A stretch of 64,000 nucleotides of DNA, taken from the NCBI GenBank assembly GCA_964597575.1, contig CAZQXB010000002.1:5624-69623 (forward strand). Direction: 5' to 3'. How positions within the stretch are numbered: the first letter of the stretch is position 1; each line of letters opens with the position of its first letter. Of this stretch, positions 4,001 to 48,360 are shown one piece after another. Under the pieces are notes generated by a model. The model was not told the DNA's origin, searched no databases, and saw only the letters and a list, made by a program, of their open reading frames with translations. The stretch is from an uncultured Gammaproteobacteria bacterium (GTDB taxonomy: Bacteria > Patescibacteriota > Patescibacteriia > Magasanikbacterales > UBA922). The translations under genes and the position numbers were made by a program.

Positions 4001-4102
4001 GTTATCCACAGTTTGGGTCAAATACTTGACAAAATGCCAAAAATAGTGTCTACTATAGGATAGTTCTCGTAGTTCTTGACAACGTGTGAGGAAGAAATCC
4101 AC
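1010..4102 (-). CDS. large polytopic membrane protein (~8-9 TM in N-terminal 470 aa) with ~550-aa charged coiled-coil C-terminal domain; hypothetical, VirB6/TrbL-like topology possible
   Basis: 1030-aa ORF. N-terminal half has many long hydrophobic segments; C-terminal half is K/E/R/Q-rich with low-complexity coiled-coil character. Start uncertain (alternatives at 4000 or 3913). Stop is 7 nt before the next minus-strand start, so operon-like. Confidence 0.6.
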   Translation of the reverse strand: MDFFLTRCQELRELSYSRHYFWHFVKYLTQTVDNMNTPLSPWARVPDCAILKGLRVIFLVYISMRAYLSITLGRAWQKWKEFLLIGHTKVWVFLILIGAASLVSFSLVHAQFVEGAALAAPYLLPKGIEVAKEAVASAPSLTPEGVANAIITAVSYVFLGISRLFLSLTVFCLDYFLKLAAYNAFIDAPPVVVGWFMVRDLANMFFIVALLVIAFSTMLGFENYAWKKSLVQLIMAAILINFSRLILGLFIDVSHVITLTFLNAVEGAAGGNLINMLQLDKILQISTNSSAAGNESIHLDLLAGAAAALIFSIISLFTIGAYAFLMLVRVLILWMLIILSPLAFVLSALPQTNSYAKEFWGEFTKYIIVGPMMAFFLWLSFATLGNGDISASLGGPVGNAEELQGVSDLVFEQGNESPSVSINAIARWENLSGFFIAVGFLLLGIERVQKIGLRGSDIAGSIISAGKKVTKGALKAGAIAGTGYLPYKYGKYYGQVGIEKVKQGYYKTLGAKDGELEGRLSEYQATTKAVRDTNIARGSRTSGAGSALSRATVALETEKARGNAEQKKEEYSLRDQQMEREKAALEKKIAEGEKRDRNTFAPGQTKYTDEQRAKFVGEYLEKNGNSMPMLASVYQDALLKRTQGGYEGKTVGQLAAMRDMDRVIQGQDPKEVMLSQDEAHRKAMADYAKFNFQERSDAIRKNIREIDKAKAAGDQKALAAARGNMDSLIHSSLENGEGTNLMNILREEKAIGFKDITESAEDIPQIILGLQGALEKRIDPGVSDDEKMQKLDGAQKDLVRSLGGKAQGSFRNLATSMDRNAELSKSYQYKGQVRRGLDTENDLREAYGFTRAMGIGTNAQNVKYITDAVNNPDKMGTVIQDRSVEYARRDQRISGIERAPTVFTLNVDGRAESVVDGDMQRLIESLGNADASTISGIKKSIMNVLSGGTEMKGGFNGTGFDFANSDIKEIFKKIVADLEVRVSEAVSGGMSKTEVDYRQKALDTFIKSAAGDATLTRDKIEEILDNVERS
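4083..4096. repeat. left arm of perfect 14-bp inverted repeat (CGTGTGAGGAAGAA) flanking GC-rich cassette
   Basis: Exact reverse complement of 4706-4719. The arms bracket the only GC-rich segment in this region. Confidence 0.75.
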
Positions 4103-4143
4103 CCCTTACCCCGCCACAGTGCGGGCTGCAGAGGAGAATCACC

Positions 4144-4656
4144 ATGAATACCCATTTCTTTGCCGCCCTTCTGGCGGCTTGCGTCTCTTTCGCCACCGCC
4201 TGCGGTGGTGACGATCCGACGGATCCGGTCAACAACCCCGACAGCGGGGTCGTGAACCCCACCGTCGACAGTGGCTACCCCCCGCCCTCCTGTGAGGGCG
4301 TGTTCTGCCCCGAGCGGCAGATGTGTCAAATCGGCGTGTGCCAGCCGATCCCATCGAGCGACTGCTCGATGTACAACTGGCTCACGGAGCAGGTGTTCAC
4401 CTGCACCCGAGACAAGACCGCGGTCTTCGTGGTTGAAAACAACATGGAGCCGTCGACGTGCGTTCTCCGACCTCCGACAGAGGAGGAGGATCCGTTGTAC
4501 GACGGACTCGACGCCGAGTTCGGCTTGAACCCCGGGGCATCCCATGGAGTAGCGCGGAACGCGCACGCAACCGTGATCGACATGAACGCGGTCGACAAGA
4601 CGTTTTCCGTGACGCACACTCCGTCCGGAAGCCGGTGGGAGTGCAGAATCCCATGA
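4144..4656 (+). CDS. GC-rich (approx 62% GC) Cys-rich putative lipoprotein, foreign-looking
   Basis: GAGGAG RBS 6 nt before the ATG. Lipoprotein-type signal peptide MNTHFFAALLAACVSFATAC with Cys at the cleavage site. CxxxxCxxxxxCxxGxC EGF-like cysteine pattern. Strong GC3 bias unlike neighbours. The antisense ORF 4018-4722 is a GC artefact. Confidence 0.6.
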   Translation: MNTHFFAALLAACVSFATACGGDDPTDPVNNPDSGVVNPTVDSGYPPPSCEGVFCPERQMCQIGVCQPIPSSDCSMYNWLTEQVFTCTRDKTAVFVVENNMEPSTCVLRPPTEEEDPLYDGLDAEFGLNPGASHGVARNAHATVIDMNAVDKTFSVTHTPSGSRWECRIP

Positions 4657-4705
4657 CGAAGTTCTCGATGAGCTTGTGTCTACAAGTTCTGGATGCTTGC
4701 GAACG

Positions 4706-4719
4706 TTCTTCCTCACACG
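4706..4719. repeat. right arm of perfect 14-bp inverted repeat (TTCTTCCTCACACG)
   Basis: Reverse complement of 4083-4096, 50 nt past the cassette stop codon. Confidence 0.75.
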
Positions 4720-4754
4720 CATCCATAGAGCATCAAAAAAATTTGATCTTCTAC

Positions 4755-4795
4755 AAATAAAACAATCTGGCTACATAGCCAGATTGTTTTATTTT
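4755..4795. terminator. bidirectional rho-independent terminator
   Basis: 10-bp stem CAATCTGGCT/AGCCAGATTG with a 4-nt loop, flanked by A-run and T-run. Serves the 3' end of the giant minus-strand gene and the plus-strand cassette gene. Confidence 0.7.
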
Positions 4796-4818
4796 ACTCG
4801 AATGATCTTGTAAACTTA

Positions 4819-7800
4819 TTACTCTTGCGATGGACGAAGTGGAATTACAATGATTTCACCCTGATATCGAGTCCAAACATTCCGCGGATTATTATCGCTT
4901 AAATCATCGCAGATGTCATCGACTATACTTTGAGTATCACTCCCATCATGAAAACCCTGCACTGATTGCACCCCGTTTTCAACCCCGTTACACCACCCCC
5001 AATTATCTTTCACCTGAACTCGGGGACGGAAGACGCATACTCGTTCATTTTCACCGAGTCCATATTCCGCACTTAAACGAACACGGGCATCTGGGTTCTG
5101 AATATCTCCCACCCGAACCGTAAATGCAGCCGGGCTGTTCGGATTCACATCTTCAACCGTACAGGTATAGTCTTTCACAAAGTTAAATGGTCGGGCTAAA
5201 CACGCACGAGGAGAGTTTCCAAATCGAGCAAATTGGTATGAATCAGAACGATCTTGATCGGTATTTGCTGCTGGCCCATAACACCGATAATTTGTTTGAG
5301 CGTTTCTTGGGTCAGTTGTCGGGCAATCCGCATGTGTACGACACGTGAACAAACTGAGGTCAGTGGCAGTAGTTCCACAAAGACCGATGGTTACAATTGC
5401 GTTGTCCGCAGAAGAACAGTAGGGCTTACGATTCTTATATAAACCCGTCTGATTCTCATTCACAATAGGGCTGTTATCACCCCAATTTACCCGTACCTGA
5501 CGAATCGGCATCTTATTGTCGTCGGCTGCCGCAAAAAATTTCATATTTACCTGGAGGTTACCAATACCGATAAGACCCCGAGGATCTGGTGCACCACTTC
5601 GATCAAGGTCTTCATCCGAAGAACCATCTTGACTCCGATCGTAGTTCCGCATCGTGCTATTTTGGCCATTAATTGTCATGTTGTTTGGCTCACCGAGGCC
5701 ACATTTTGACCGTGATTGTTCGCCCACAGTACCACCACCTGGGCAGTTTGCCGGGTTAAGCGAATAGATTTGCGGCGCAACCAAGGTGCCAATTTCTGGC
5801 ACTGGATTACTCACACCACTTCGGTCAACGGCTTGTACTAATGGATCGATGGTCGTACGACTGGTCTGTACATTTGGACGTACACTTGCGTTTTCTAAAC
5901 TAAAGGTATCGAAGGTGAGGGCAAATAAGCGACTGAGTGCGTTTTCACCTGCAGTTTGGTTTTGACCAAGAACGGCCACCTGTGCCGGAATAAGCGGACT
6001 CACGAGAGCTCTTGATTCAAGTGTTGAACAAGGGTGAGCCGTATTTCCTGTTAGATAGAGCGACCCAAACCAGCTTGCCCCGCTACATGCATATGGAACA
6101 CCATCAACTAAATCTTCCCCATGCATACCCGACTGAAATCCGTATCGACGGAGTATCTCAGCCTGTTCGTCTGAAGTGCCAAAATTCGTAATTCGGAGAG
6201 AGCCAAATGGAGAATTCCGCATACCATCTTTCGTAAAGACGCTCCCGAAAGAAGGATGGGTCATCGAACGAATCGCATTACTTACACTACTTACCGCGTT
6301 CGTGGCATACTGCCATACCCGGTTAGTCCATGCTTTATTTAATTGTTCTGTAAGCGGTGCGGAACTGTCGTGCACTTGCGCAACAGCAGTACACTGGTCT
6401 GCCATTTGAGCGATCGTTGCAAAATAGATACCGTCGCTTACATCTGTTGCCTGAAGAACAGATTCATTACACCATCTGCTTACAAAACCTAAGAATTCAC
6501 CATCTTCATTAAAGTCCATCCCAATAGCCACCCAATTTTCCGTGTCTCCATCTCCATCGGCATTCGAATCGGTTTTACACAGAACACTATCGCTAAATGG
6601 ATCACTAATTGGTGCTTGATTTCGGCCAGCGAATGATGACACAGAGGTGTCGAGTTCTTGATTCAACACAAAGGAAGGAAAACGCGATCCTCCACCACTC
6701 GTATTTCCCTGACCCCGGTCAACAAAGAAAATTGAAACATATCGTTCTTGAATACGGTTTCTGCGGCACCATTCTTCAAACTGAGGCCGGACACTGGTCG
6801 TTCCACATTCTTGATTATATTGGTTAAAAAGCCAACCTGAGCCCCCCGTGAGATCCGTATAATCGAGAGAATCAAATTCTGCCCCCTCGGCTTCAGGGCG
6901 CACATACCGAACATTTACCACTACCCCATTATTTCCCCCACCCGCAGGCTCTGCATAGTAATCTCCCTGACTTCCAGCCCCACCAAAAGAGGTTTGGCGG
7001 CCAGACGTAATAATAGGATCATTATGGGCTCTACTTCGAAGAGCAGCCACATCGAGGAAAAACCCATCGTTTAAAATCTGTGGAGCATACCCTTCAAGAC
7101 CTCCCGGAAACGCAAGAGGGACGAAGGTTACTCGAGACAAATCCGATGAGCGCATAAACGCAGTTTCAGCACGTTGCATCACCCGAAAATGACCACTCTG
7201 GATACTCCGCTCAAGTTGGGAATTTGACTGATTAAACGTATCAAGCCGATCTGGAGTCATCCCCAAGTTGTACTGACCATCTGGCGTATTTGGATTTGGA
7301 GCTGGATCAGGCACACCAAGATATGAAGTATTTACCGAAAAGTTATTCATTCGGTCACGATACATGAACACATTGGTCGTGTCTCCAGGTGGCGTTACCC
7401 CAAATTGTCGAGGAGGGTGAAGAAGGGTGCCGAAAGCCGCCACCTCTGCATCAGTTTGGTTTGAAAGAACCAAATCATCATGAACATTGTTCGCAAAAAC
7501 ACTAGGAGTGTACACCTGCAGGTCACTTGCCCGAACGGTATCGTATGTGTTTGGGTCATTACTTCCATTAAGGGAGCTCATTTCTGTGCGAAGGAGCAGA
7601 GCACTTGGACCGAAACGGCGCCATGCCCACGATTGAATGGCCGAGTAAATGTACCCCTGGTCAACCGAGTTACACATGATTCGTTCAAATTCCGTATCTG
7701 TGCTACAGTCTCCTCCGTTCGTTGGGTCCTGGCCTGCAGGAAACACCTGATCGTACACAGTGTTGCCATCCGCTACAGTACGAATGGCATTATCCGTGCC

Positions 7801-10800
7801 ACCACCAACCGGAGGCGAAATATCTGGCGCCTGAAGCCCAACACCAAGACGTGTCGAGTTAACACAGTAGGCCTGTCCTGCAATTTGTGGAGTATTTCTC
7901 AAAAGTAAGGCATCGATATCGGGTTTATACCCCGCTTCGTCATCGGCATTAAAAATATCAAATGTTGAGGCTGACACGCCAATAGGAAGCCAGGTGAGGC
8001 AGGCGTATTCCGTTGGAGAATTTATGCCGTTTACTGGACGACTTAGATCTCGCTCTAAACAGAATCCTTCAAACCCATAATAGGTATCTCTCTTTTGAAT
8101 CGGTATACATTCGTGTGGTGTTTGATTGGTTTGTGGTTGGTTTGGCGTGGCAACATTACACTGCTCAATAGCTGAACATGGGCGGCCTTGGTTTGGCCCC
8201 GTAGCACATACACGCGTTGGGATTGGTGCAGCCGCATTCGCACTTTCATATAAGTAAGGCCAATAATCCACGACTCCGTTTCGGTAGGTTACTTTCACAT
8301 ACTTACACGAACAATCTTCTCCGGTTTGGCACACATTTGCTCCTGCAAATTCATTCAACTTTGAAATAAATTCAACACGGGGAGCAGAAATTCCCAGCGC
8401 TCCAAGTATATTTCTCGCGGTTGTTTCTTGTTTCAGCACTGATTGTGGATACGGTGAAGTGGCCTCAGGGTACGCTTTACACGATGCCGCTTCAAGCACA
8501 GAAACAAGGGATTCAATTTCACGAGGACTGATATTTCCTGAAGGAATTGTACGGTCTGAAGGAAATGTACCCTTTACCGGGCGAATACACTGCCCTGAAT
8601 AACACCGGCCGAGACCACCTGACCCACACACGCGCCAATCAGTGCGCTCATTCCCCACTGGGGCACACGCGCTGTTTGCACTCCGCTGTAAATACACCGC
8701 ATACGCACGCTCTTCAAGGCGCTCAAGGCGACGAAGATCCGCAGCCGCGTCTGGGCTCTGTGGGTTGATAGCTACTTTATCTGCACTCAGATCCAAAACG
8801 ATATATGATTGATTTCCGATTTGATACTGGTTAAACAGTGAGTACCCGCTGTATTCTGGATCATTCCAACCAAGCCCTCGTTGAATATAGAGATCTTCCG
8901 TAAGTTGACGTGATGCTTCAGGGGCAAGTTCCCCTACCCAGTGCGTACAGACACCACCTGCACCCATCTGATCACACGCCTTATAGTCGTAGCAGAGCTC
9001 ACTTTGTCTTCCTTGCTCATCTTCTTGAATCACCTTTCCTTTACATGCAAGCCACTCAGCACAAACACGGTCTCGATCAACCTTAAGCACGATATTTGCA
9101 TCGTTATCAGTAACACTCCCAGCGGAACGAGGAGAAACCGGGGAAAACTCTGGGCTCGCCAAAGCACTCGCGCGGTATGTAGCATCGGTACTATACGTTT
9201 TTCTTGGGTTATCGGTTTGATCAAAGAGAATACAACCGTCAACCTGGCTTGCCCCCGTAGCACAAGCTTGGGCACGGGCGCGAATTTTATCATTGTTCTT
9301 TACATAATACGGCCGACCATTTGGGTAAGCCCCTGATACATCAACCGGGTCAATAAATTCTGTACACAAATGAGCTTCGGCCGCACACACCGCTACACGG
9401 CCCGTATATTCTGGAGAATCATTGGAGCGTACGTCGTATACCACACCGGACGAAGTTCGACGCAAGAATGTTGCGTCACAGGCTACAGCTGACGCGACAC
9501 AGGTATTACCGGCTCCACAATCACTATTATTATTTGTTCGGCAAACCATGGTAGCATCTTGGCTGCACCGACCCATACCTCTCAGAAACCAACCGTTCAC
9601 TCGCGTTTGCCCTACCGATTGGCCTTCAAGGTACTCACACACCCCAGCACCAGTAAATTCAGGGTCACGGAAATAACTCACCGTATTGTCGGAGCGAAAT
9701 TCTGCACAACCAATTTGCTCGGCTTGACAAAGGATTCCGGCGCTTTCCCCAGGGGCCGTAACGTAGTTCGCAGGGTTATTCAAAAGGTACACCTCATTAA
9801 AGGTAAAGGCTGCTGCATCTGCCCGAGGCAATACTTGCGTTTCCATAGCAACTTTCTGGCAGCCAAGTTCAGTTGAGCGGCAAGTAACATCTTTTCTATT
9901 GGTAAGAAAGAGCGGCGCCGCCACTGCCGTATCAGCAGGAATAACTACTGATGTGTTCACTACTCGAAGTGGACCAACAGGAAACACAGTGCCGGTTGGA
10001 ATAATGATCGCTTCATTGATATAACAACCTTCTTGGCCACGTGGAACCGTACATTCATAATCCACATTCGCCACACGAGCAGTACAATTCGCACTTCCAG
10101 GAGCACTGCACCAAACATTGAACGCCTGAGCAAAGGTGGAAGCTGGGGCGGCACCTAACGTATTCTGTGTATCCCATACTGGCTCACATCCAACCGCGGC
10201 TTCACGACAAATCGTTTCAAAACCAGTTGCATAGACCACACGATTCTTGCTGTCCGTATATGCACGGCATCCGAGAGCTTCACCTGGGAATATATCCGTT
10301 GGGGTGCTATCGCACTGGGTTGGAACATCCCCGCCACCGGCTACTCTCCATGAATTTCGGATCAGCGGTGTACGGTCTCGAAGTTCAATTAAACGAACAT
10401 AGTCAAGGAAATAATCCCGTGCGTTTCCTGACCGAACGAACTCAATGGCGAGAGGCTCCGCAGGATCAACACCATCAAGCGAGACTGGCCCAAACGTGAA
10501 CTCCTGCCATCCACCAGTAATACCTGCAAGGGCGGTCGGTTCGGTAAATGCACCAAATTCGACACCATTCGCATTCACTCGACTTCCGTTTTGAGTAAAG
10601 TAAATTTCGAGATTTTGTAACCCGTCAGCTCGGCCCCAGAAGGTAAGAGTGAACGTTTTTCCGACTTGCACTTGAGCCTGAGGAACCGTGCGGGCAACCC
10701 GTGCTGCGGCCGCTGGAATTCCCAAAGAATGTTCACCTACAATAACCGCTTCCCCAGCCAGACGAAGTGCTGCGTTATTTTGAACCGGAGCCCAACCAAG

Positions 10801-13800
10801 GGCCAGCGGTGCCTGAGTATCTTCAAAGTTATCATTAATAACGGTTGCAAAGACATTGCGACCTGTGTTTCCTACATACACTCGGCAATTGTTTGCCAAA
10901 GCTGGGCAAGCGCTCGATTGTCCGGCGGTGGTGAGGGCTTGGTACACACAAGCGCCATTTTCTACACGGCCTCCAGCTGCACAACGGCGGCATTCATTTT
11001 CAGCAACATCCCAACTTCCGCCCCGACCTGTACAAGCAGCACTGTTCGTTAAGACAGCATCAACATAGAGCGATGAATCTGTTTTTCGTAAACGTGAACA
11101 TTCTGCCGAGACAGCGATTGTTTCTGACAATAATCGATAGTACACTTCTCCATTCGCATCATAGAGTGCACGACAGTCAATGTCAGCGCGGTTTGGATTC
11201 ACAGGGTCATTAACACCGAGCGTATAGTTTACTTCGTTACACCGGGTTACGGCGTTTTGGAGCGCCTCACCATTATCGTTTGCATACGTTGGGCTACCAA
11301 CCGCAAAAATGGTATTGTAATTCACTCCTTGCACAGTACCTGCAGCAGTAGCCGCGCTTACCATATACGCACTATTCTGAACATCGAGAGCTACAAGAGT
11401 GTGAACCCGAAGCACATACCCTTCTCGATCCGACCCTTCCCATGAATAGTATGTTTGCCCAGGATTTACCTGCGGTCGTTCACAGCGACGAAGGTCGGTG
11501 TAGTATTCACGACCCTCTCCTCCGCGGGCAGCAACATCGATATTCGTAAATTCCGAACACCCGGCAAAGCGCTCCTGACAGCGGTCGCCTGCTGAAGGAA
11601 TAAAATGAAGGGGAAATACGGCCGGGTCAAAGGCGGTGGCTTCCTGACGGAACGTATCGTAACCAACACAAATTTGGTTACAGGTATTTCCACCGACCAT
11701 ACCTGGAATTGCTGGGGCTCCGGCACCACCAAGAGGTCGATATGATTCACACCCAACTTCTTGTGGCGCACACGCCGCAGCAAACTTACCACAGGCATTA
11801 TTCCGGGCAAAAACGGTTTGCGCTTCGGCGCTGGTTCGTGGCCAATTTACTTCCGGTGTTGCAATGTTTGTATCGTAACAACCAAGATAGTCAGGGGCTT
11901 TTTTCAAATATGCAATTTCACTCACGGGCGCTTGAATATATTGCCCGCCTGCTGTTTGTGAAAACTGACCGCTTTCAACGACGCGAAGTGCAGTAAAGAA
12001 CGCATGACAACCTTCGGCGCCTGTAGGGCATGTTTTTTCTGTACCAATTTGGTTTACAAAGAGTGCTTGATTTCGCCCGAGCGTTACTGTTTTCAAGGCA
12101 AGATTCGCCTGAGCTGTAGGAATCCACTGCCCCTGTGCATTTTGTTCGGTACTGAACGCGCGACAACCAACCGTATCTGCGGTACAGGTAGAAAAATCAA
12201 TAGTACGAGTAAGATACGAGTCAACTTCACCAGTGCTATTTCGGTACGTACGACATGTGGCATACTGTGGTGCACACACATCCCCATTCAGCTTCCAAAT
12301 ATTTTTTTCTTTTGTACAGAAACCCTGACCCATACAGCTTCCATCACTATTTGTTGCGATACAGGTTGCAATGTCAGCACACTCTTCTCCGCGTGTCGGA
12401 GATGCCGGAGTAACAAGGTTCGGCCCAACCACCCGTGCAGGGCAGCTCGCCGAGAAAGAACGGAGTACCCAATTTGGATTAATAAGGTGGCAATACGGAA
12501 ACTGAGCACTTGCACGCCCGTCTGGGGCACAGTTCTCAAAGTTATCAACCACCCTCTGGAGCGTCCAGTTTTCTTGCGGGCTATCTGGATCAGCCTTAAG
12601 CGCAGCGATTTCAAAACCAAGCGGCAAAATACGCGCCTTTCGAAGCTTCTGAATGTTTGAATAACAATACGCATTACTATAGCATTCAGAGTCTCTGTTT
12701 CCGTTTCCTCCGGCAACTTCTCGGCGCGGTGAAATAAGTGGCCAATCTCCATGCAAAAGACCAGCATTCATGGCCTCACGAATGGTCATGGGCTTATCGA
12801 GCGTACCTCGCGTAAGTGCCTGGAATAAACTTTGATCCATGACACAGTTATCAAGTTTCGGATTTTTTGGACAAGTGACAAAATTGAGTAACACGTCGTA
12901 ACTTGGAACACTTACCACCTGAGCCGTAAGTAAATCAGAAAGAACCCCAGCCGGCTCACGATTTCGATTCCCTACAGCGAAAAAATTTGGGTCAAATGCG
13001 TTCGGCTGAAAAAGCCCCTGTTCAAATGTCTGATCAAGAAGTGTAGTAACGAACGACCCTAAGAAGGTCTGTACTGCCAAAGGAATGGCCTGTGCCGCAC
13101 CCGACGCAATGGCGCCACCCAATAATTGAAAACCACCGGTCACGAAATTATCGCTTGCAATATTTTTTGTTGCTGCCTGCTCAAAAAACCTCGCTGGAGT
13201 GAGAATCGTATCAGACACTTTATCTTTCAGATCACGAAATCCATTCCCAATCGTACGTTCAAGACCAGCAGACGCAGCAGCGGTCGCACGAATGGCATCA
13301 ACCTGGGCAATTGCCCCAAAAGCCAAACCAAAGTCAGATTGTTTTACGCTGACCGCATCGCTAAACTTCTGCGGAATGAGCTTACTCGCACCCTTTCCAA
13401 ATTTCCGCTCAAACCCTTCAGCGCTCCAGTTATTTCGAAATTCTTGCAATGTACACCGTGGAGTAGGGGAACCTTGACCGTATAAGTCCCCGATACCGAT
13501 TTGCAAGAAAAGCTGTAAACGAATATCAGGAATCTGACACAAATTTAACCCGAACGGCTGTCCAATACTCACAATCGCCTCCCCTACTGCTCCACCTGCC
13601 ACATCCGCAATATAATCCCCGGCTGGCTTTTCAAAAACCAGTGATTTTTTTCCGGCGGCACTTTCACCTAAAAACTTCGCGGTATCGTAGGCTAATTTTT
13701 TCAAAAAATAACTCGCGGTATTGTAGGCGGTACCAATGGCTGCCTGAAGCACCGCTTCGGTCAAGCTAAACTTAGCTTCCTGTCTCCCTTCTGATTCCCA

Positions 13801-13947
13801 CCGGGGATAGTCGAAAGTCGTTACGTTTTGTACAGCAAACTGCGCGTATGCTGGAGTAAGTGGCTGTAAAACCACACCTCCAAGAACCAAAAATAAAAGA
13901 AAAATACCTGCCATCCGCCTCCCCTTACCTAACAAAAACCTAAACAT
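4819..13947 (-). CDS. giant (3042 aa) secreted Cys-rich surface protein
   Basis: Uninterrupted 9.1-kb ORF. Sec signal peptide (KGRR n-region, hydrophobic core, AYA-QF cleavage site). Hundreds of Cys in recurring C-x-C / C-x-x-C spacings, and Gly/Asn/Thr-rich beta-type repeats. No catalytic motifs recognised. Alternative start at 13914 has a GGAGG RBS. Confidence 0.8.
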   Translation of the reverse strand: MFRFLLGKGRRMAGIFLLFLVLGGVVLQPLTPAYAQFAVQNVTTFDYPRWESEGRQEAKFSLTEAVLQAAIGTAYNTASYFLKKLAYDTAKFLGESAAGKKSLVFEKPAGDYIADVAGGAVGEAIVSIGQPFGLNLCQIPDIRLQLFLQIGIGDLYGQGSPTPRCTLQEFRNNWSAEGFERKFGKGASKLIPQKFSDAVSVKQSDFGLAFGAIAQVDAIRATAAASAGLERTIGNGFRDLKDKVSDTILTPARFFEQAATKNIASDNFVTGGFQLLGGAIASGAAQAIPLAVQTFLGSFVTTLLDQTFEQGLFQPNAFDPNFFAVGNRNREPAGVLSDLLTAQVVSVPSYDVLLNFVTCPKNPKLDNCVMDQSLFQALTRGTLDKPMTIREAMNAGLLHGDWPLISPRREVAGGNGNRDSECYSNAYCYSNIQKLRKARILPLGFEIAALKADPDSPQENWTLQRVVDNFENCAPDGRASAQFPYCHLINPNWVLRSFSASCPARVVGPNLVTPASPTRGEECADIATCIATNSDGSCMGQGFCTKEKNIWKLNGDVCAPQYATCRTYRNSTGEVDSYLTRTIDFSTCTADTVGCRAFSTEQNAQGQWIPTAQANLALKTVTLGRNQALFVNQIGTEKTCPTGAEGCHAFFTALRVVESGQFSQTAGGQYIQAPVSEIAYLKKAPDYLGCYDTNIATPEVNWPRTSAEAQTVFARNNACGKFAAACAPQEVGCESYRPLGGAGAPAIPGMVGGNTCNQICVGYDTFRQEATAFDPAVFPLHFIPSAGDRCQERFAGCSEFTNIDVAARGGEGREYYTDLRRCERPQVNPGQTYYSWEGSDREGYVLRVHTLVALDVQNSAYMVSAATAAGTVQGVNYNTIFAVGSPTYANDNGEALQNAVTRCNEVNYTLGVNDPVNPNRADIDCRALYDANGEVYYRLLSETIAVSAECSRLRKTDSSLYVDAVLTNSAACTGRGGSWDVAENECRRCAAGGRVENGACVYQALTTAGQSSACPALANNCRVYVGNTGRNVFATVINDNFEDTQAPLALGWAPVQNNAALRLAGEAVIVGEHSLGIPAAAARVARTVPQAQVQVGKTFTLTFWGRADGLQNLEIYFTQNGSRVNANGVEFGAFTEPTALAGITGGWQEFTFGPVSLDGVDPAEPLAIEFVRSGNARDYFLDYVRLIELRDRTPLIRNSWRVAGGGDVPTQCDSTPTDIFPGEALGCRAYTDSKNRVVYATGFETICREAAVGCEPVWDTQNTLGAAPASTFAQAFNVWCSAPGSANCTARVANVDYECTVPRGQEGCYINEAIIIPTGTVFPVGPLRVVNTSVVIPADTAVAAPLFLTNRKDVTCRSTELGCQKVAMETQVLPRADAAAFTFNEVYLLNNPANYVTAPGESAGILCQAEQIGCAEFRSDNTVSYFRDPEFTGAGVCEYLEGQSVGQTRVNGWFLRGMGRCSQDATMVCRTNNNSDCGAGNTCVASAVACDATFLRRTSSGVVYDVRSNDSPEYTGRVAVCAAEAHLCTEFIDPVDVSGAYPNGRPYYVKNNDKIRARAQACATGASQVDGCILFDQTDNPRKTYSTDATYRASALASPEFSPVSPRSAGSVTDNDANIVLKVDRDRVCAEWLACKGKVIQEDEQGRQSELCYDYKACDQMGAGGVCTHWVGELAPEASRQLTEDLYIQRGLGWNDPEYSGYSLFNQYQIGNQSYIVLDLSADKVAINPQSPDAAADLRRLERLEERAYAVYLQRSANSACAPVGNERTDWRVCGSGGLGRCYSGQCIRPVKGTFPSDRTIPSGNISPREIESLVSVLEAASCKAYPEATSPYPQSVLKQETTARNILGALGISAPRVEFISKLNEFAGANVCQTGEDCSCKYVKVTYRNGVVDYWPYLYESANAAAPIPTRVCATGPNQGRPCSAIEQCNVATPNQPQTNQTPHECIPIQKRDTYYGFEGFCLERDLSRPVNGINSPTEYACLTWLPIGVSASTFDIFNADDEAGYKPDIDALLLRNTPQIAGQAYCVNSTRLGVGLQAPDISPPVGGGTDNAIRTVADGNTVYDQVFPAGQDPTNGGDCSTDTEFERIMCNSVDQGYIYSAIQSWAWRRFGPSALLLRTEMSSLNGSNDPNTYDTVRASDLQVYTPSVFANNVHDDLVLSNQTDAEVAAFGTLLHPPRQFGVTPPGDTTNVFMYRDRMNNFSVNTSYLGVPDPAPNPNTPDGQYNLGMTPDRLDTFNQSNSQLERSIQSGHFRVMQRAETAFMRSSDLSRVTFVPLAFPGGLEGYAPQILNDGFFLDVAALRSRAHNDPIITSGRQTSFGGAGSQGDYYAEPAGGGNNGVVVNVRYVRPEAEGAEFDSLDYTDLTGGSGWLFNQYNQECGTTSVRPQFEEWCRRNRIQERYVSIFFVDRGQGNTSGGGSRFPSFVLNQELDTSVSSFAGRNQAPISDPFSDSVLCKTDSNADGDGDTENWVAIGMDFNEDGEFLGFVSRWCNESVLQATDVSDGIYFATIAQMADQCTAVAQVHDSSAPLTEQLNKAWTNRVWQYATNAVSSVSNAIRSMTHPSFGSVFTKDGMRNSPFGSLRITNFGTSDEQAEILRRYGFQSGMHGEDLVDGVPYACSGASWFGSLYLTGNTAHPCSTLESRALVSPLIPAQVAVLGQNQTAGENALSRLFALTFDTFSLENASVRPNVQTSRTTIDPLVQAVDRSGVSNPVPEIGTLVAPQIYSLNPANCPGGGTVGEQSRSKCGLGEPNNMTINGQNSTMRNYDRSQDGSSDEDLDRSGAPDPRGLIGIGNLQVNMKFFAAADDNKMPIRQVRVNWGDNSPIVNENQTGLYKNRKPYCSSADNAIVTIGLCGTTATDLSLFTCRTHADCPTTDPRNAQTNYRCYGPAANTDQDRSDSYQFARFGNSPRACLARPFNFVKDYTCTVEDVNPNSPAAFTVRVGDIQNPDARVRLSAEYGLGENERVCVFRPRVQVKDNWGWCNGVENGVQSVQGFHDGSDTQSIVDDICDDLSDNNPRNVWTRYQGEIIVIPLRPSQE

Positions 13948-26646: not shown

Positions 26647-26835
26647 AACAGTTCCAAATATATTTTACTTTCATCTATTAGACACGGAGCCCCATTTCTT
26701 CACAACTTTTATATAGTATAGCCTATGTGGGTAAGATGTGGAAAAAGAGATATACACAGGGAGTTTACATAGGGGGCATGGCGTGTGATACTACGATTGT
26801 TCGTAAACGAAAAAGAAAAGGGGGGGTGAACGAAC

Positions 26836-27789
26836 ATGCTCACTACAAACAAATTCTCCATGGAAAAAGCGGTGAGCCAATTCGTTCACCGTGGATATAC
26901 TTTTGTTCCTGCCGACCTATGGCGCTTTGTCAGACCACTCAACACAGGATTCACCGAATTCCTACGGTATTCAGAGCAAGAACGCCGTTCTTTTACCTCG
27001 TTCCGGCGGTTTGACCCAAATGACCCTAACCAACCCGATGATGGATATATGGCTCGGCGCGGAGCCGAAACCAAGAGCCGGAATGGCAAGCAGGGCGGGA
27101 AGACCGATATCAAGGATATTATCCACATCCGCGGAGACATCTTTGATATCTACCGCGAAGCTGGTCTAAGACTGAGCCCAAGGGAGACCAGATGGCTCCA
27201 AACCGGCGTCGATGCGCACCAGGCTGTACGCACACTACTCGATCCGTTCTATCTCCAACTCGAGAAGACGCTCACTCAGAAAAACCTCCTGAAAAAAGAG
27301 GGGTTTTACCGAATGATGCGAGACCTCTCGGTGGACCGATCGGTGCTACGCCTCAACCACTACCTGAAGATGCGCGACGACCGTCCGTCGAGTACGCGTT
27401 GGGCTCAGGTGGGTCGCAGTCACACCGACCGATGCTTTCTCACGGTGGCCTGGTTTGAGGGTCTTGCTGACGGTAACCGCGACGAGTCCTCTCGATTGCA
27501 ACGGTATTTCGGAAATTTCATCCTTCCGCAGATACCCAATTTCGTGCCGGATGAAAGCCTGAAGCTCGAGACATCTGACAAGCGCGACCGCGACCACCTC
27601 AAGTGGCGACGAGTTGCTCCACGACCAAGCTACGTTCTCATCTTCGCATCAGCCATGGCCAATCAGGAGTTCGGTATCCCCGCCATGTGGCATCGCATCT
27701 TGTCCGAGAACGGTAAGAGGGTCGCACGTCGGTCGTTCGTCCACTTCGAGCAGATGCCGATCGAATTTTTCGGGTATGGAAACCACTAA
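26836..27789 (+). CDS. GC-rich island gene: putative 2-oxoglutarate/Fe(II)-dependent oxygenase (isopenicillin-N-synthase-like superfamily)
   Basis: AAAGGGGGGG RBS. LRLNHYL (cf. LRLNYYP), HTD followed by LTV (HxD...LT), distal WH and RxS 12 aa later (WHRILSENGKRVARRS). GC ~55% against a ~45% backbone. Candidate extended -10 promoter TTTACA-N17-TGTGATACT upstream. Confidence 0.5.
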   Translation: MLTTNKFSMEKAVSQFVHRGYTFVPADLWRFVRPLNTGFTEFLRYSEQERRSFTSFRRFDPNDPNQPDDGYMARRGAETKSRNGKQGGKTDIKDIIHIRGDIFDIYREAGLRLSPRETRWLQTGVDAHQAVRTLLDPFYLQLEKTLTQKNLLKKEGFYRMMRDLSVDRSVLRLNHYLKMRDDRPSSTRWAQVGRSHTDRCFLTVAWFEGLADGNRDESSRLQRYFGNFILPQIPNFVPDESLKLETSDKRDRDHLKWRRVAPRPSYVLIFASAMANQEFGIPAMWHRILSENGKRVARRSFVHFEQMPIEFFGYGNH

Positions 27790-27860
27790 CCTAAGCCCCC
27801 GACTATGCCACCTTCAGGAGCATGCGTACCGGGGCTTTTTCAATTAAAAAAATTTTCAAA

Positions 27861-27895
27861 CAAAAAATCTGGCCAATTGACCAGATTTTTTGTTC
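27861..27895. terminator. bidirectional terminator between island-2 gene and typA
   Basis: AATCTGG-CCAATTGA-CCAGATT hairpin flanked by an A-run and a T-run. Confidence 0.65.
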
Positions 27896-42858: not shown

Positions 42859-42958
42859 AGATTTCCTTAAACCTCCCAGGGTTGGCTGTTCGAATGGCGA
42901 ACAGAGGAAATAGTGCCTTTTCTCAGGCGGTCCCTGGTGAGAGATGAATATGGGCCTC

Positions 42959-42987
42959 AGTGTACCGAAACTACTATAAATTGTCAA
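42959..42987 (-). promoter_or_regulatory. sigma-70 promoter of rpsB-tsf (TTGACA-N17-TACACT)
   Basis: Minus strand: TTGACA at 42982-42987, TACACT at 42959-42964. The transcript would carry a ~95-nt structured leader with the CTGTTCG-ccatt-CGAACAG hairpin. Confidence 0.55.
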
Positions 42988-43122
42988 GGCTCTTGACAAC
43001 AGAGCCAAAATGGAGTATATTTTCTGGTTGACTGCCATAGGAAAAATGCCTGGGCAGCGGCTTACCTTGGCAATTCGCCTCGGTAATTACCCCCTTCATC
43101 CGAAGGGACAAGGACACGACAA

Positions 43123-43956
43123 GTGAGCAAGCAGAAGAGCGGTTCGATGGTTCCCGGCAAGATGACCCTGGCCGAGGCGAAGCAGTGGCGCCCGGACCCA
43201 GCCAACAAGCCGACCCGCGTCATCCCGGAGCGCCTGCAGACCAAGGGGCGCATGAACGCGGTCGCCCGCTACGAGCAGGTCTTCGCCCGGCGCAAGGGCG
43301 TCGGTGGCACGAAGGATCAGATCATGGCGGGCATGAAGAACATCCGCCGTAAGAACGAGACGGTGTACGCCTGCCGGCAGGCGTACACCGCCCTGCTCGA
43401 CTGCGGGTACATCCGTGAGATCGAACTGACCGACAAGAAGGACATGGTGTTCGTCATCTTCCTCGTGGCGCCGGCCGTGCCCGAGAAGAAGACCGCGACG
43501 AAGACGACCGGGGTCAAGAAGGTCGAAGGAACCATCAAGGTCGACCGCAGCAAGATCACGGATCTCCAGCCGGTCGAGACGCGTGGGAGCGACCGCACCG
43601 AGGAGGAGCTGCTCACGCAGAGGATGGCCGAGCTCGACGCCGAGGAAGGTGCGCTCGAGGCCAACCTCCTCAACGTGCGCGACGAGAAGAAGGCCACCCA
43701 GACCAGGCTCACAGAACTTCTGGCCGCCGCGGTCGATCAGAAGGCGAGGGACTTGATCCCGAACGTCACCCACCTGGGCGAGCTGGCGTTCAGCGAGCTG
43801 GCCTTCGCGATCGAGGCCGAGAAGTTGCGCCGTCGAGGCCGTGACAGCACGGACAGCACCGACGAGAACGATGGCGCTGGAGCGACCGCCCCGGCCATGA
43901 TGGCCACTCCCGGTCTGAGCGGCACCAGTTCCGCGACCCAGATGGCCACCGCCTAG
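43123..43956 (+). CDS. GC-rich island gene: hypothetical protein with central coiled-coil and acidic Ser/Thr-rich C-terminus
   Basis: GC ~65% with extreme GC3 bias. GTG start per the ORF track, with alternative ATGs at 43147 and 43162. No recognisable catalytic motif. The antisense ORF 43096-43965 is a GC artefact. Confidence 0.55.
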   Translation: MSKQKSGSMVPGKMTLAEAKQWRPDPANKPTRVIPERLQTKGRMNAVARYEQVFARRKGVGGTKDQIMAGMKNIRRKNETVYACRQAYTALLDCGYIREIELTDKKDMVFVIFLVAPAVPEKKTATKTTGVKKVEGTIKVDRSKITDLQPVETRGSDRTEEELLTQRMAELDAEEGALEANLLNVRDEKKATQTRLTELLAAAVDQKARDLIPNVTHLGELAFSELAFAIEAEKLRRRGRDSTDSTDENDGAGATAPAMMATPGLSGTSSATQMATA

Positions 43957-43996
43957 CCACACCACTCACGTGACGTAGCAAGGCAAGGAGAAGATA

Positions 43997-44056
43997 CCCG
44001 AGTTTACGCACACATTGAAAGGAGATGTGCGCAACTCGGGTGTTTTTATTTTTTCT
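43997..44056 (+). terminator. strong rho-independent terminator after island-3 gene
   Basis: Long stem CCCGAGTT..GCGCAC / GTGCGC..AACTCGGG followed by TGTTTTTATTTTTT. Confidence 0.7.
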
Positions 44057-44064
44057 GCTATACT

Positions 44065-44832
44065 ATGTACCATATGTTTACCCCTTCTGCTCCTTGGTAT
44101 AAACATGGCGCCGGCCGTGCCTTCCTTATTTTTCTCGCTATCATCGGGCTTATTGCAGCGAGCTTCGGTACTTTGGTTGCTTATTATTTGTGGCACTATA
44201 ACCAAGGTACTTTTGCAACTGTTGAAAAAAAACTCTATGAAGGCAGGCAAAGCACCTTGACTGGAGCGGCGCAGCAACCCAAAAACCCAACCATTGCGGA
44301 CCCTACAAAACTGATCCGTGCGCACAACCCTACCATTGGCGAGACCGATGCGCCGATTACGGTCATCATGTTCATCGACTTTGAGTGTCCATTTTGCCAA
44401 GCCGATTACGCCAGCATGCAAAAAATTCGTGACCAGTACGCCGGCGTGGCGCGATTTGTATTTAAACATTTTCCCGTTGAAGCCATTCATCCCAACGCAC
44501 GCACGGCTGCCATGGCTGCCGCTTGTGCAGCAGAAGAGGGAAAATTCTGGCCGTACTACGATCATTTATTTCAAAACAAAAATCTTTCTGAACACGGTTT
44601 AGCGACCGCAGCCACAGCGCTTAACATTAAAACCCCTCGTTTCGACAGCTGTCGAAGCACGTACCGCACGGCAAAATTCATTGAAGAAGATGTAAACGAC
44701 GCTTACGCTATTGGTATTCGCGGAACACCAACGTATATCGTCAACGGCACCCGTATCGATGGGAGTATTCCAGAAAGCGAATGGCAGCGCATCATGGTTG
44801 AAGCACTCAAAACACCCGCCACAAAACCATAA
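44065..44832 (+). CDS. membrane-anchored DsbA/BdbD-like thiol:disulfide oxidoreductase
   Basis: N-terminal TM anchor, FECPFC CxxC motif, and a thioredoxin fold. TATACT -10 at 44050-44055 only ~9 nt before the ATG, suggesting a leaderless transcript; alternative ATG at 44074. Confidence 0.75.
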
Positions 44833-44881
44833 TTGACATATTCCCTTTCCTCGCGTATACTTCTCATCCGACCAATCCTCA

Positions 44882-47743: not shown

Positions 47744-47764
47744 AATCTTTTCTTAATTAAAGGA

Positions 47765-47800
47765 ACCCGCATCGAGAATTCGATGCGGGTCTTTGGTTCA
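47765..47800 (+). terminator. hairpin terminator after uvrA
   Basis: 11-bp stem ACCCGCATCGA / TCGATGCGGGT with loop GAAT. The T-tract (CTTTGGTT) is weak. Confidence 0.5.
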
Positions 47801-47831
47801 GGCCAGCTGCAGGATTGCAAGCGACCCACTT

Positions 47832-48230
47832 CTACATGTGGTGGACGAGCTTGACCCAGCCAACAACCGGCTCTGGTTTCGCCTCCCACTCATAACGGGA
47901 ACGGTCGCACAGGTTTCCGGTCGGCAGGCGGCAAAGCTTAGTCTCGCGGACCATGACAATCCAGCCCCGCAATAAGGTGGCACACGCCTCCACAGACGCG
48001 TCGACATGTGATATGCCGGTGTAGAACTCGAGGGTGGCTTCTCCAGCGCGAGCGTGAAACTCGCAGGAGATGAGCACTCCGTCGGCGTCTCGACTGGCGA
48101 TGATGTAGACCACTTCAGCCGGATACGACTCAGCATTCACGAAACATCCCCGCTCTCGAGTAATGACATCGATCGGGTAGATGATGAAAGCCACGAACAC
48201 GAGGAACTTGAGCCAGCTCTTGTTTTCCAT
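47832..48230 (-). CDS. GC-rich island gene: small membrane-anchored hypothetical protein (approx 131 aa)
   Basis: GGGAGAGG RBS 8 nt before the MENKSW ATG. N-terminal TM helix (WLKFLVFVAFIIYPI) then a ~100-aa Cys-containing domain. GC ~57%. Start placed by counting from the ORF end; the local sequence is ambiguous by ~2 nt. Confidence 0.5.
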   Translation of the reverse strand: MENKSWLKFLVFVAFIIYPIDVITRERGCFVNAESYPAEVVYIIASRDADGVLISCEFHARAGEATLEFYTGISHVDASVEACATLLRGWIVMVRETKLCRLPTGNLCDRSRYEWEAKPEPVVGWVKLVHHM

Positions 48231-48360
48231 TGTTTTTACCTCTCCCTGTGAACAATCTCTCATGGCAGTAGAAGCAAGGCACATGACCCTGAACCACTAC
48301 CGCCACGAAAGACTGTTCTTGCCTAATGAAAGCTAAAATAAAGCTCTATATAGACACATG

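What the first reader, a model, noticed from the sequence alone, without database searches (positions are those of the whole stretch)
4083..48294. Four GC-anomalous single-gene islands inserted in intergenic gaps of an AT-rich backbone
Islands at 4.1-4.7 kb, 26.8-27.8 kb, 43.1-44.0 kb and 47.8-48.3 kb are 55-65% GC with strong GC3 codon bias; everything else is ~45% GC. Each holds exactly one ORF with its own RBS, and a terminator follows closely. The encoded products are a lipoprotein, a 2OG-oxygenase-like protein, a coiled-coil protein and a small membrane protein. The pattern fits repeated acquisition from a high-GC donor, for example an actinobacterial host of an episymbiont. An assembly chimera or an engineered construct is also possible. 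The island-1 repeats are 14 nt and perfect, the island-4 boundaries share a 9-nt inverted repeat (CCTGAACCA), and the island-3 boundaries share an imperfect 9/11 inverted repeat.
Basis: partly seen in the sequence, partly recalled or inferred. Interest (0 to 1): 0.75.

Follow-up and report, generated by a model that had tools for sequence, protein, structure and literature searches.

The report
GC-rich single-gene islets in a CPR genome
Four short GC-rich stretches in this candidate-phyla-radiation (Magasanikbacteria-like) chromosome are real one-gene accessory loci of unknown function and foreign-looking composition, but at least three sit at the same sites in sister lineages as very divergent GC-rich versions, so they are old, fast-evolving residents rather than fresh imports or assembly errors.

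Summary
Four stretches (4083-4719, about 26836-27800, about 43045-43990, about 47794-48296) are 54-66% GC in a 46% GC window. Each holds one ORF with high GC3 (0.62-0.90; backbone median 0.415), a Shine-Dalgarno sequence and a hairpin terminator. All four have a dinucleotide signature outside the backbone range. They are not RNA genes and not chimeras: two assembly pipelines give the same contig, and other samples carry counterparts.

No donor was found and none of the four proteins matches a known family. The backbone is Magasanikbacteria-like housekeeping DNA without mobility genes. Islands 2, 3 and 4 have positional counterparts in sister lineages (UvrA 87% identical, synonymous sites near saturation), also GC-rich but 42% identical or less. 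The next outgroup (UvrA 77%) lacks islands 3 and 4. Two strains with 99.2% identical backbones carry island-2 alleles only 33% identical.

Most likely these are promoter-ORF-terminator units acquired by the clade's ancestor, then kept, lost or replaced lineage by lineage. Island 3's GC3 of 0.90 in two lineages is too high for neutral amelioration and stays unexplained. Only island 1's 14-nt inverted repeat exceeds chance.

The parts
4083..4719 (.). Island 1: GC-rich body (62% GC) bounded by a perfect 14-nt inverted repeat
   Evidence: GC run; inverted repeat 4083-4096 / 4706-4719; 1 of 300 shuffles reaches 14 nt; the repeat has no other copy in the window
4144..4656 (+). isl1 ORF, 170 aa: N-terminal hydrophobic segment with lipobox-like LAAC/ATAC, 10 Cys, acidic. 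GAGGAG Shine-Dalgarno at 4131-4136
   Evidence: (GC3 0.80). Gene callers instead called the antisense 234-aa ORF 4018-4722
4755..4794 (.). 19-bp perfect AT-rich hairpin. Likely bidirectional terminator shared with the convergent 3042-aa gene
   Evidence: I1; the AATCTGGY..RCCAGATT motif is shared with the hairpin after island 2
26836..27789 (+). isl2 ORF, 317 aa (a gene caller starts it at 26860, giving 309 aa). HxD...H...RRS motif. G-rich Shine-Dalgarno at 26820-26826
   Evidence: Orthologues or alleles at the same slot in L016, L017 and L018
27859..27894 (.). Hairpin terminator between isl2 and the convergent BipA/TypA gene. It belongs to the backbone because it is conserved in relatives
42993..43021 (+). 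Promoter-like site TTGACA-17-TATATT (11 of 12) upstream of isl3
   Evidence: consensus match only
43045..44046 (.). Island 3 unit (GC-rich body about 43045-43990 plus its own terminator), defined as the insertion relative to L012
   Evidence: Alignment of the S2-DsbA spacers; GC run
43123..43956 (+). isl3 ORF, 277 aa, GTG start, AAGGA at 43110-43114. Basic N-terminal part with helix-helix-helix-strand-strand order, long helix at residues 160-244, low-complexity tail
   Evidence: (GC3 0.90). Gene callers called the antisense 288-aa ORF
43361..43390 (.). 30-nt perfect palindrome inside the isl3 ORF
   Evidence: (I2)
43991..44046 (+). Hairpin terminator of isl3. Alignable with L002 and absent from L012, so it is part of the island unit
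47765..47790 (.). Bidirectional hairpin terminator between uvrA and isl4. Conserved with compensatory changes in L012, absent from L002
47832..48230 (-). isl4 ORF, 132 aa from MENKSW (the longer ORF runs to 48284): one N-terminal hydrophobic helix and 5 Cys. GGGAGAGG Shine-Dalgarno at 48239-48246 (minus strand)
   Evidence: (GC3 0.71). Homologous 132-aa gene at the same place in L012 (z = 8.2, 0 of 1000 shuffles)
48361..48389 (-). Promoter-like site TTGACA-17-TG-TATAAT (12 of 12) upstream of isl4
   Evidence: consensus match only

Best explanation
The four islands are single-gene accessory units, each a promoter, ribosome-binding site, ORF and hairpin terminator. They sit in intergenic spacers of the core chromosome of a Magasanikbacteria-like (candidate phyla radiation) bacterium.

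Their coding bodies carry the codon usage and dinucleotide signature of genomes much richer in GC. They were most likely taken up horizontally, from unidentified donors, by the common ancestor of a small clade: the window genome plus the L002/L016 and L012/L018 lineages. This happened after that clade split from the lineage of L013.

Since then the genes have been expressed from host-type signals and have evolved several times faster than their neighbours. They have been partly ameliorated, lost in some lineages (island 3 in L012, island 4 in L002), and at least once replaced by a very divergent allele through recombination in the conserved flanks (island-2 slot, L016 versus L017).

The products are a Cys-rich secreted or lipoprotein-like protein, a small membrane-anchored Cys protein, a possible 2OG-oxygenase-like enzyme, and a protein with a long helix and possibly a winged-helix domain. 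These fit a variable, niche- or partner-facing accessory function.

Shown: the composition, the anatomy, the presence/absence pattern, the homology of the slot occupants and the allele replacement. Inferred: the foreign origin, the timing, expression and function.
For: - Composition and signature are foreign. GC3 is 0.62-0.90 against a backbone median of 0.415. Signature distance lies beyond the backbone windows, with high GA/TC and low TA shared by the islands and by their counterparts in relatives.
- The islands are coding, not RNA. They show strong third-position periodicity. Rfam has no hit at gathering score, and at E up to 1 it matches only the terminator hairpins.
- The backbone is housekeeping and has no integrase, transposase, reverse transcriptase or tRNA.
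- UvrA tree: ((L002/L009, L012) 95%, window 87-88%), L013 77%.
- Island 3 with its terminator is present in the window and in L002. It is absent from L012, L013, L003 and L008.
- The island-4 gene is homologous to the 132-aa gene directly after uvrA in L012. It is absent from L002/L009 and L013.
- The island-2 gene has a 42%-identical orthologue at the same slot in L016, and a frameshifted orthologue in L018 that is 77-83% identical to L016's.
- L016 and L017 backbones are 99.16% identical over 8.2 kb, yet their island-2 alleles are 33% identical and cannot be aligned as DNA.
- The genes evolve fast. The island-2 protein is 82.5% identical between L016 and L018, against 96.8% for BipA.
- Host-type expression signals flank each ORF.
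- Single transferred genes and islands are already reported as common in Patescibacteria (PMC12455944).
Against: - No donor homologue was found for any island protein.
- Island 3 keeps GC3 of 0.90 (window) and 0.92 (L002), although 4-fold sites of uvrA are only 40% identical between the two genomes. My rough estimate is 0.4-0.6 substitutions per 4-fold site per lineage, which should have relaxed about half of the excess GC. That fits islands 2 and 4 but not island 3.
- Homology of the two island-3 proteins is weak: Smith-Waterman score 54 against 37 +/- 6.4, with 7 of 500 shuffles as high, and BLASTP E = 0.24.
- Island 1 could not be examined in any relative.
- Promoters and terminators are consensus matches only.
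- Negative homology searches are weak evidence. One search missed the L016 orthologue found, and gene callers took the antisense strand in islands 1 and 3.
Confidence: 0.55

Rival explanations
1. Native hypervariable loci whose GC is raised locally. The genes are long-standing residents, and their high GC3 is kept up by a locus-specific process. Candidates are GC-biased gene conversion at recombination hot spots, a targeted A:T-to-G:C mutator, or selection on the mRNA.
For: - Each gene family keeps its own GC level across very divergent alleles: island 3 at 0.90 and 0.92; island 2 at 0.62, 0.65, 0.55 and 0.58-0.67; island 4 at 0.71 and 0.56.
- Island 3's GC3 cannot be explained by neutral amelioration (plus inference).
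- The slots are recombination-active: allele replacement between 99.2%-identical strains, and 81 of 86 L002-L009 differences packed into 250 nt of another GC-rich gene.
- GC-rich islets are frequent in this clade and rare in about 120 kb of more distant relatives.
Against: - The dinucleotide signature also differs, not only GC.
- Islands 3 and 4 are absent from the outgroup L013.
- From general knowledge, the reported effect of biased gene conversion on bacterial GC3 is a few percent, not 50 points.
- The L002-L009 differences include all substitution types, not a single class.
- No reverse transcriptase, deaminase or repeat donor is in the window.
Confidence: 0.2
2. One reading: four recent, independent insertions into this genome from one high-GC donor such as an actinobacterial host of an episymbiont.
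For: - Unameliorated GC3 of islands 1 and 3.
- The four islands resemble one another in dinucleotide signature more than they resemble the backbone.
- Island 1 is bounded by a perfect 14-nt inverted repeat and has GC-rich untranslated flanks, as a fresh insert might.
Against: - Islands 2, 3 and 4 are shared with sister lineages at the same slots.
- There are no actinobacterial or other donor homologues.
- The islands differ widely in GC3 (0.62-0.90).
- Nothing is known here about a host.
Confidence: 0.12
3. Artefact: an assembly chimera joining CPR and high-GC reads, or an engineered construct.
For: - Sharp compositional boundaries.
- A 12-of-12 consensus promoter in front of isl4.
- Related contigs tend to break at island borders: L009 starts at the island-3 border and L017 ends inside the island-2 gene.
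Against: - The same 91-kb contig appears in the NCBI and Logan assemblies.
- Homologous GC-rich genes sit at the same slots in four other samples or assemblies.
- Every island is a complete ORF placed exactly between host signals.
Confidence: 0.02
4. The GC-rich stretches are structured non-coding RNAs, the usual cause of GC peaks in AT-rich genomes.
For: - The island-1 transcript folds with z = -9.5 against shuffles.
- A fifth GC-rich stretch just outside the window has no long ORF.
Against: - Strong GC3 periodicity and full-length ORFs in all four islands.
- Protein-level conservation with conserved Cys and HxD motifs.
- No Rfam family.
- The fold z-score is mostly due to the 14-bp closing stem and the 19-bp terminator (inference).
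Confidence: 0.02

Closest known systems
Individually transferred genes and small genomic islands in Patescibacteria/CPR genomes (PMC12455944)
   Same: Single foreign-looking genes in streamlined CPR chromosomes, detected by composition and patchy distribution. That paper also concedes that donors may go uncaptured.
   Different: - Three of the four slots are shared by sister lineages with very divergent alleles.
- GC3 stays as high as 0.9.
- None of the products belongs to a known family.
Phage 'morons': autonomous promoter-ORF-terminator units of deviant base composition inserted between two genes of a prophage (recalled from the lambdoid-phage literature, not read here)
   Same: One ORF with its own promoter-like site and terminator. 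Composition differs from both neighbours. Inserted exactly in an intergenic spacer. Present in some relatives and absent from others.
   Different: The neighbours are core cellular genes (S2, UvrA, L19, BipA), not phage genes. No prophage is nearby.
Taxonomically restricted (orphan) genes of bacteria (PMC11293555; PMC1559721)
   Same: No detectable homologues outside a narrow clade, short length, fast evolution, and a debated origin (external element versus native).
   Different: The GC content is far above the host genome, not below it. My recollection, not checked here, is that bacterial orphan genes usually lean AT-rich.
Integron gene cassettes
   Same: Single-ORF units, often orphans with atypical GC, each followed by a palindromic element.
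   Different: - No integrase and no cassette array.
- Each unit has its own promoter.
- The palindromes are ordinary AT-rich terminators, one of which belongs to the backbone.

Membership tests
Horizontally acquired genomic islet | Base composition and codon usage deviate from the host genome | tested here: met
   GC 54-66% against 46%. GC3 0.62-0.90 against a median of 0.415
Horizontally acquired genomic islet | Composition-normalised oligonucleotide signature deviates from the host | tested here: met
   Distance 0.136-0.192. At most 0.5% of 400 backbone windows reach it
Horizontally acquired genomic islet | Patchy distribution: absent from close outgroups with an intact empty site | tested here: met
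   Met for islands 3 and 4. Empty S2-DsbA and uvrA-L19 spacers in L013, and also in L012 and L002 respectively. Not testable for island 1. No outgroup was reached for island 2
Horizontally acquired genomic islet | Identifiable donor lineage (homologues nested in another taxon) | tested here: not met
   No homologue outside the clade. These searches are imperfect
Horizontally acquired genomic islet | Mobility hallmarks: integrase or transposase, tRNA target, flanking direct repeats | tested here: not met
   None in the window or its annotated flanks
Phage moron | Single ORF with its own promoter and terminator, and composition unlike its neighbours | tested here: met
   Promoter-like sites of 11 and 12 out of 12 for isl3 and isl4, hairpins after all four ORFs. 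These are consensus matches, not transcripts
Phage moron | Located inside a prophage genome | tested here: not met
   The neighbours are S2, EF-Ts, UvrA, L19, BipA, NusA and GroEL. The window's four island proteins have no credible PHROG hit (only a chance-level E = 0.023 for isl1)
Integron gene cassette | attC site (imperfect palindrome with RYYYAAC / GTTRRRY cores) at the 3' end | tested here: not met
   The hairpins are perfect AT-rich stems followed by T-runs, without the core sites (read). The island-2 hairpin is BipA's conserved terminator
Integron gene cassette | Array next to an intI integrase; cassettes without promoters | tested here: not met
   The units are dispersed over 44 kb, there is no integrase, and each has its own promoter-like site
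Inverted-repeat-bounded transposable element (island 1) | Terminal inverted repeats | tested here: met
   14-nt perfect repeat at 4083-4096 / 4706-4719; 1 of 300 shuffles reaches 14 nt
Inverted-repeat-bounded transposable element (island 1) | Target-site duplication, further copies, or a transposase | tested here: not met
   The flanks GACAA and CATCC differ. The 14-mer occurs only at these two places, allowing up to 2 mismatches. No transposase
Diversity-generating retroelement target | Reverse transcriptase, template/variable repeat pair, adenine-specific differences | tested here: not met
   No reverse transcriptase in the annotated genes. No second copy of any island segment. The L002-L009 differences involve all bases
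2OG-Fe(II) oxygenase (isl2) | Match to PF03171 or related Pfam models at the gathering score | tested here: not met
   No hit for isl2 or the L016 allele. The best is E = 0.18 (12.6 bits, cut-off 23) for the L017 allele. A profile search against PDB gave nothing relevant
2OG-Fe(II) oxygenase (isl2) | HxD...H iron triad and RxS 2OG-binding motif | tested here: met
   SHTDR...HRIL...RRS is conserved in the window, L016, L017 (RRT) and L018 alleles. Motif reading only
2OG-Fe(II) oxygenase (isl2) | Double-stranded beta-helix fold | tested here: inconclusive
   The single-sequence AlphaFold model has mean pLDDT 36.5, so no fold search was run
Bacterial lipoprotein (isl1) | Signal peptide ending in a lipobox Cys | tested here: inconclusive
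   Hydrophobic window at residues 4-22, and LAAC / ATAC before Cys13 / Cys20. No dedicated predictor was available

The most novel reading that the evidence does not exclude
These are not imports at all. They would be a class of hypervariable single-gene loci in a CPR clade whose GC content is actively driven upward at the locus. The driver could be GC-biased gene conversion at recombination hot spots or a targeted A:T-to-G:C diversification process. The same slots would swap very divergent alleles between nearly identical strains. This would be a bacterial analogue of recombination-driven GC islands, tied to fast-evolving surface or interaction genes.
Probability: 0.12. Interest if true: 0.8.

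Novelty: new member of a known kind. Interest (0 to 1): 0.45.

Why it matters
CPR bacteria have tiny genomes and are thought to depend on partner organisms, so their few variable genes are the best clues to how they interact with those partners.

These loci are expressed-looking, fast-evolving and partly secreted or membrane-bound. They are gained, lost and swapped at fixed slots between core genes, which makes them good candidates for that interface.

Two practical points follow:
- Standard gene callers read the wrong strand in two of the four islands. The real proteins are therefore missing from protein databases, and 'orphan' status is partly an artefact.
- GC3 near 0.9 persists in two lineages separated by near-saturated synonymous divergence. 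This is a concrete case for testing amelioration against locus-specific GC drive in bacteria.

Tried and rejected
- **RNA genes.** Rfam at gathering score on the whole window found nothing. At E up to 1 on three islands it matched only the terminator hairpins. There are no tRNA or tmRNA genes.
- **Known protein families.** Pfam, NCBIfam, PHROGs and PADLOC gave nothing credible. The L002 island-3-like fragment hits phrog_33955 at 6e-5 over a Lys/Glu-rich stretch, which I do not trust.
- **Donor search.**
  - isl3: no hit.
  - isl2: only itself.
  - isl1: one 2e-5 hit to a repetitive 500-aa protein, judged uninformative.
  - tblastn against phages and plasmids and four viral-contig scans found nothing.
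- **Structure.** The single-sequence models were too poor for fold searches: isl2 pLDDT 36.5, isl3 pLDDT 55. No fold search was run.
- **Transposon or MITE for island 1.** No target duplication, no other copy, no transposase.
- **Integron cassettes, retroelement targets and silent-cassette gene conversion.** No integrase, no reverse transcriptase and no paralogous segments.
- **Shared module between islands.** The four islands share no sequence. The hairpin motif common to islands 1 and 2 turned out, at least for island 2, to be the neighbour's conserved terminator.
- **Inversion as the cause of the L002/L009 variable block.** Rejected.
- **Literature search for the sample accessions.** Nothing found.
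- **Island 1 in relatives.** All neighbouring proteins are singletons at 90% identity, so no related contig could be reached.
Full report
**1. The observation**

The window is 45.95% GC. Among 200-nt windows (mean 0.460, sd 0.052), the only long runs of at least 54% GC are 4051-4700, 26901-27800, 43001-44050 and 47751-48200, peaking at 0.66, 0.60, 0.68 and 0.615.

Each run contains one ORF whose third codon positions carry the excess GC:
- isl1, 4144-4656 +: GC3 0.80
- isl2, 26836-27789 +: GC3 0.62
- isl3, 43123-43956 +: GC3 0.90
- isl4, 47832-48230 -: GC3 0.71

The median GC3 of 54 non-overlapping ORFs of the window is 0.415, and the four highest values are the four island loci.

The anomaly is not only GC. 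The composition-normalised dinucleotide distance to the backbone is 0.136-0.192. None of 400 same-size backbone windows reaches it for islands 1-3, and 0.5% do for island 4. The islands share high GA/TC, low TA and lower AA/TT.

Shine-Dalgarno-like sequences precede each start, and a hairpin follows each stop. Rfam and ARAGORN find no RNA gene. At E up to 1, Rfam matches only the terminator hairpins. So the described features are real and far beyond chance.

**2. The repeats**

The 14-nt perfect inverted repeat bounding island 1 (4083-4096 / 4706-4719) is confirmed. Only 1 of 300 composition-preserving block shuffles gives an inverted repeat that long.
- It has no other copy in the window and no target-site duplication.
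- In a predicted fold of the transcript it closes the whole ORF.

The 9-nt inverted repeat at island 4 exists, but 45% of shuffles give a repeat at least that long. Nothing at the island-3 borders exceeds chance.

**3. Where the window comes from**

Exact protein look-ups place the window on a 91-kb contig that exists both in an NCBI assembly and in the independent Logan assembly of run SRR13355621.

The neighbours of the islands are core genes: S2, EF-Ts, UvrA, L19, BipA/TypA, NusA, YidC, GroEL/ES, RF-1, KsgA and a class A PBP, plus two giant proteins of 3042 and about 1000 aa. No integrase, transposase or reverse transcriptase is present. The closest public relatives are Candidatus Magasanikbacteria, a CPR/Patescibacteria group.

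**4. What the products are**

None of the four proteins matches Pfam, NCBIfam, PHROGs or PADLOC.
- isl1 has an N-terminal hydrophobic segment with lipobox-like LAAC/ATAC, 10 Cys, and is acidic.
- isl4 has one N-terminal hydrophobic helix and 5 Cys.
- isl3 is predicted with confidence only as a long helix (residues 160-244, pLDDT above 90). Its N-terminal part shows a helix-helix-helix-strand-strand order compatible with a winged helix, but at low confidence.
- isl2 carries HxD...H...RRS, conserved in all alleles found. The 2OG-oxygenase family is not detected at significance: the best Pfam result is E = 0.18 for one allele, the PDB search gave nothing, and the model has pLDDT 36.5.

Homology searches found no donor. 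Two caveats weaken these negatives:
- The word-indexed search for isl2 missed an orthologue that I later found by context.
- In islands 1 and 3 the gene callers chose the antisense ORFs of 234 and 288 aa. The true proteins of this genome, and probably of its relatives, are therefore not in protein databases.

**5. Relatives**

UvrA identities give the tree ((L002/L009, L012) 95%, window 87-88%), L013 77%. Four-fold sites are only 35-40% identical in every pair, which is close to saturation.

Island 3:
- L002 carries, at the same S2-DsbA spacer and in the same orientation, a 64-73% GC ORF with GC3 0.92. It is followed by a hairpin terminator that aligns with the window's at 74.5% over 165 nt.
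- The two proteins are only weakly and collinearly similar: IFLVxP ... DLIP, Smith-Waterman score 54 against 37 +/- 6.4, with 7 of 500 shuffles as high.
- L012, L013, L003 and L008 have a short empty spacer without the hairpin.

Island 4:
- L012 has, directly after uvrA and its conserved terminator, a 132-aa gene homologous to isl4 (z = 8.2, 0 of 1000 shuffles, four aligned Cys; GC3 0.56 against 0.36-0.39 for the flanking uvrA and DsbA genes).
- In L012 that gene is followed by a five-gene carotenoid cluster inserted in the same spacer.
- L002/L009 and L013 have uvrA and L19 separated by only 52-90 nt.

Island 2:
- L016, from the same MAG as L002, has a 303-aa gene at the same slot. It is 42% identical to isl2, with 57% GC and GC3 0.65.
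- L018, from the L012 lineage, has an orthologue 77-83% identical to L016's, but frameshifted.
- L017 has a backbone 99.16% identical to L016 over 8.2 kb, yet carries an allele only 33% identical that cannot be aligned as DNA.

Island 1 could not be examined.

**6. Reading**

The islands are not private, recent insertions of this genome, and they are not artefacts. The simplest account is as follows:
- Foreign single genes entered the common ancestor of the window, L002 and L012 lineages, after the split from L013.
- They came under host-type signals. These include an 11-of-12 promoter-like site for isl3, a 12-of-12 site for isl4, and hairpin terminators, one of which (island 3) travels with the gene.
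- They then evolved fast. The island-2 protein is 82.5% identical between L016 and L018, against 96.8% for BipA.
- They were lost in single lineages and occasionally replaced by divergent alleles through the conserved flanks.

A rough calculation gives about 0.4-0.6 substitutions per 4-fold site per lineage since the window/L002 split, which should have removed about half of any excess GC3 (inference).
- For islands 2 and 4 this is compatible with an ancestral GC3 of about 0.85-1.0.
- For island 3 it is not: GC3 is 0.90 and 0.92 in the two lineages.

Island 3 therefore needs one of three things: later or repeated renewal of the coding body, a locus-specific GC-raising force, or selection. I cannot decide among these. 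I keep the local-GC-drive reading as the main rival (0.2) and as the novel case.

**7. Comparison with known systems**

In function and anatomy the units resemble phage morons: a promoter-ORF-terminator unit of deviant composition inserted between two genes and patchily present. They sit among core cellular genes, however.

They match the single transferred genes and small islands reported as common in Patescibacteria (PMC12455944), and they are taxonomically restricted orphan genes.

They fail the defining tests for integron cassettes, transposable elements, retroelement targets and structured RNAs (see the membership table).

I therefore file them as new members of a known kind. The unexplained persistence of very high GC3 and the allele replacement are the parts worth following up.

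Noticed in passing
window 4018-4722 (-) and 43096-43965 (-): The gene calls on record for this contig take the antisense ORFs (234 aa and 288 aa) in islands 1 and 3. In those ORFs GC is highest at codon position 1, not 3. The sense proteins are absent from the protein collections, which inflates their 'orphan' status.
   Followed up: partly
window 43361-43390: A 30-nt perfect palindrome (CGGTGTACGCCTGCC/GGCAGGCGTACACCG) lies inside the isl3 coding region. The related L002 contig ends about 26 nt downstream of the equivalent position.
   Followed up: no
window 43466-43481 and 44106-44121: A 16-nt perfect direct repeat (TGGCGCCGGCCGTGCC) is shared by the interior of isl3 and the N-terminal coding part of the neighbouring DsbA-like gene, read in different frames. 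None of 500 block shuffles reaches 16 nt.
   Followed up: partly
window 4764-4785 and 27866-27887: The only two copies in the window of the hairpin AATCTGGY..RCCAGATT, each preceded by AAAAAAATTT, follow islands 1 and 2 (0 expected). The island-2 copy is BipA's terminator and is conserved in relatives, so the motif is probably a native terminator type.
   Followed up: partly
L014:17800-19000 (same contig, about 2-3 kb beyond the window end): A fifth GC-rich stretch (up to 65% GC) with only short ORFs, weak codon periodicity and no Rfam match. It may be a decayed island or something else.
   Followed up: partly
L009:4426-4676 versus L002:5004-5254: Two assemblies of one species differ at 86 positions in 4.7 kb. 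Of these, 81 fall in two blocks within 250 nt of a GC-rich 143-aa ORF between L19 and the NAGPA-like gene, with no indels. The window lacks this gene.
   Followed up: partly
L016:8646-9694 versus L017:8206-8784: Backbones are 99.16% identical, but the gene at the island-2 slot is only 33% identical in protein and cannot be aligned as DNA. The L017 contig ends inside it.
   Followed up: yes
L012:3989-9966: In a sister lineage the uvrA-L19 spacer holds 6.2 kb: the isl4 homologue, a five-gene carotenoid cluster of normal GC (Caroten_synth, UbiA, a phytoene-desaturase-like gene, SQS_PSY, polyprenyl synthase), and a GC-rich ORF of about 100 aa. The spacer is an insertion hot spot.
   Followed up: partly
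L018:4269-5193 and L018:465-1055: The island-2 orthologue of the L012 lineage is split by a frameshift into 138-aa and 177-aa ORFs (a pseudogene or a sequencing error). A further 196-aa gene of 51-56% GC replaces the GST gene found at that place in L016.
   Followed up: no
L005:88-975: A more distant Magasanikbacteria contig (40% GC) carries a 57% GC gene (GC3 0.69) that reads like a purine nucleoside phosphorylase (my reading of the translation, not family-tested). It looks like a separate single-gene import with a recognisable family.
   Followed up: no
L002, L005, L007 record titles: Three public MAGs titled 'uncultured Gammaproteobacteria bacterium' carry loci related to and largely syntenic with Magasanikbacteria (DsbA-like, UvrA and L19 in the same order). 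They are probably mislabelled.
   Followed up: no
window 1010-4102 (-) and 4819-13947 (-): Two adjacent giant ORFs (about 970-1030 aa and 3042 aa) with N-terminal hydrophobic segments. The larger is Cys-rich. Neither has a family on record: a Pfam scan of the smaller found nothing and the larger has no precomputed Pfam hit. Island 1 lies between them.
   Followed up: no
window 48361-48389 (-): The only perfect 12-of-12 sigma-70 consensus with an extended -10 (TTGACA-17-TG-TATAAT) in the 10 kb scanned drives the small isl4 gene. This suggests strong expression.
   Followed up: no
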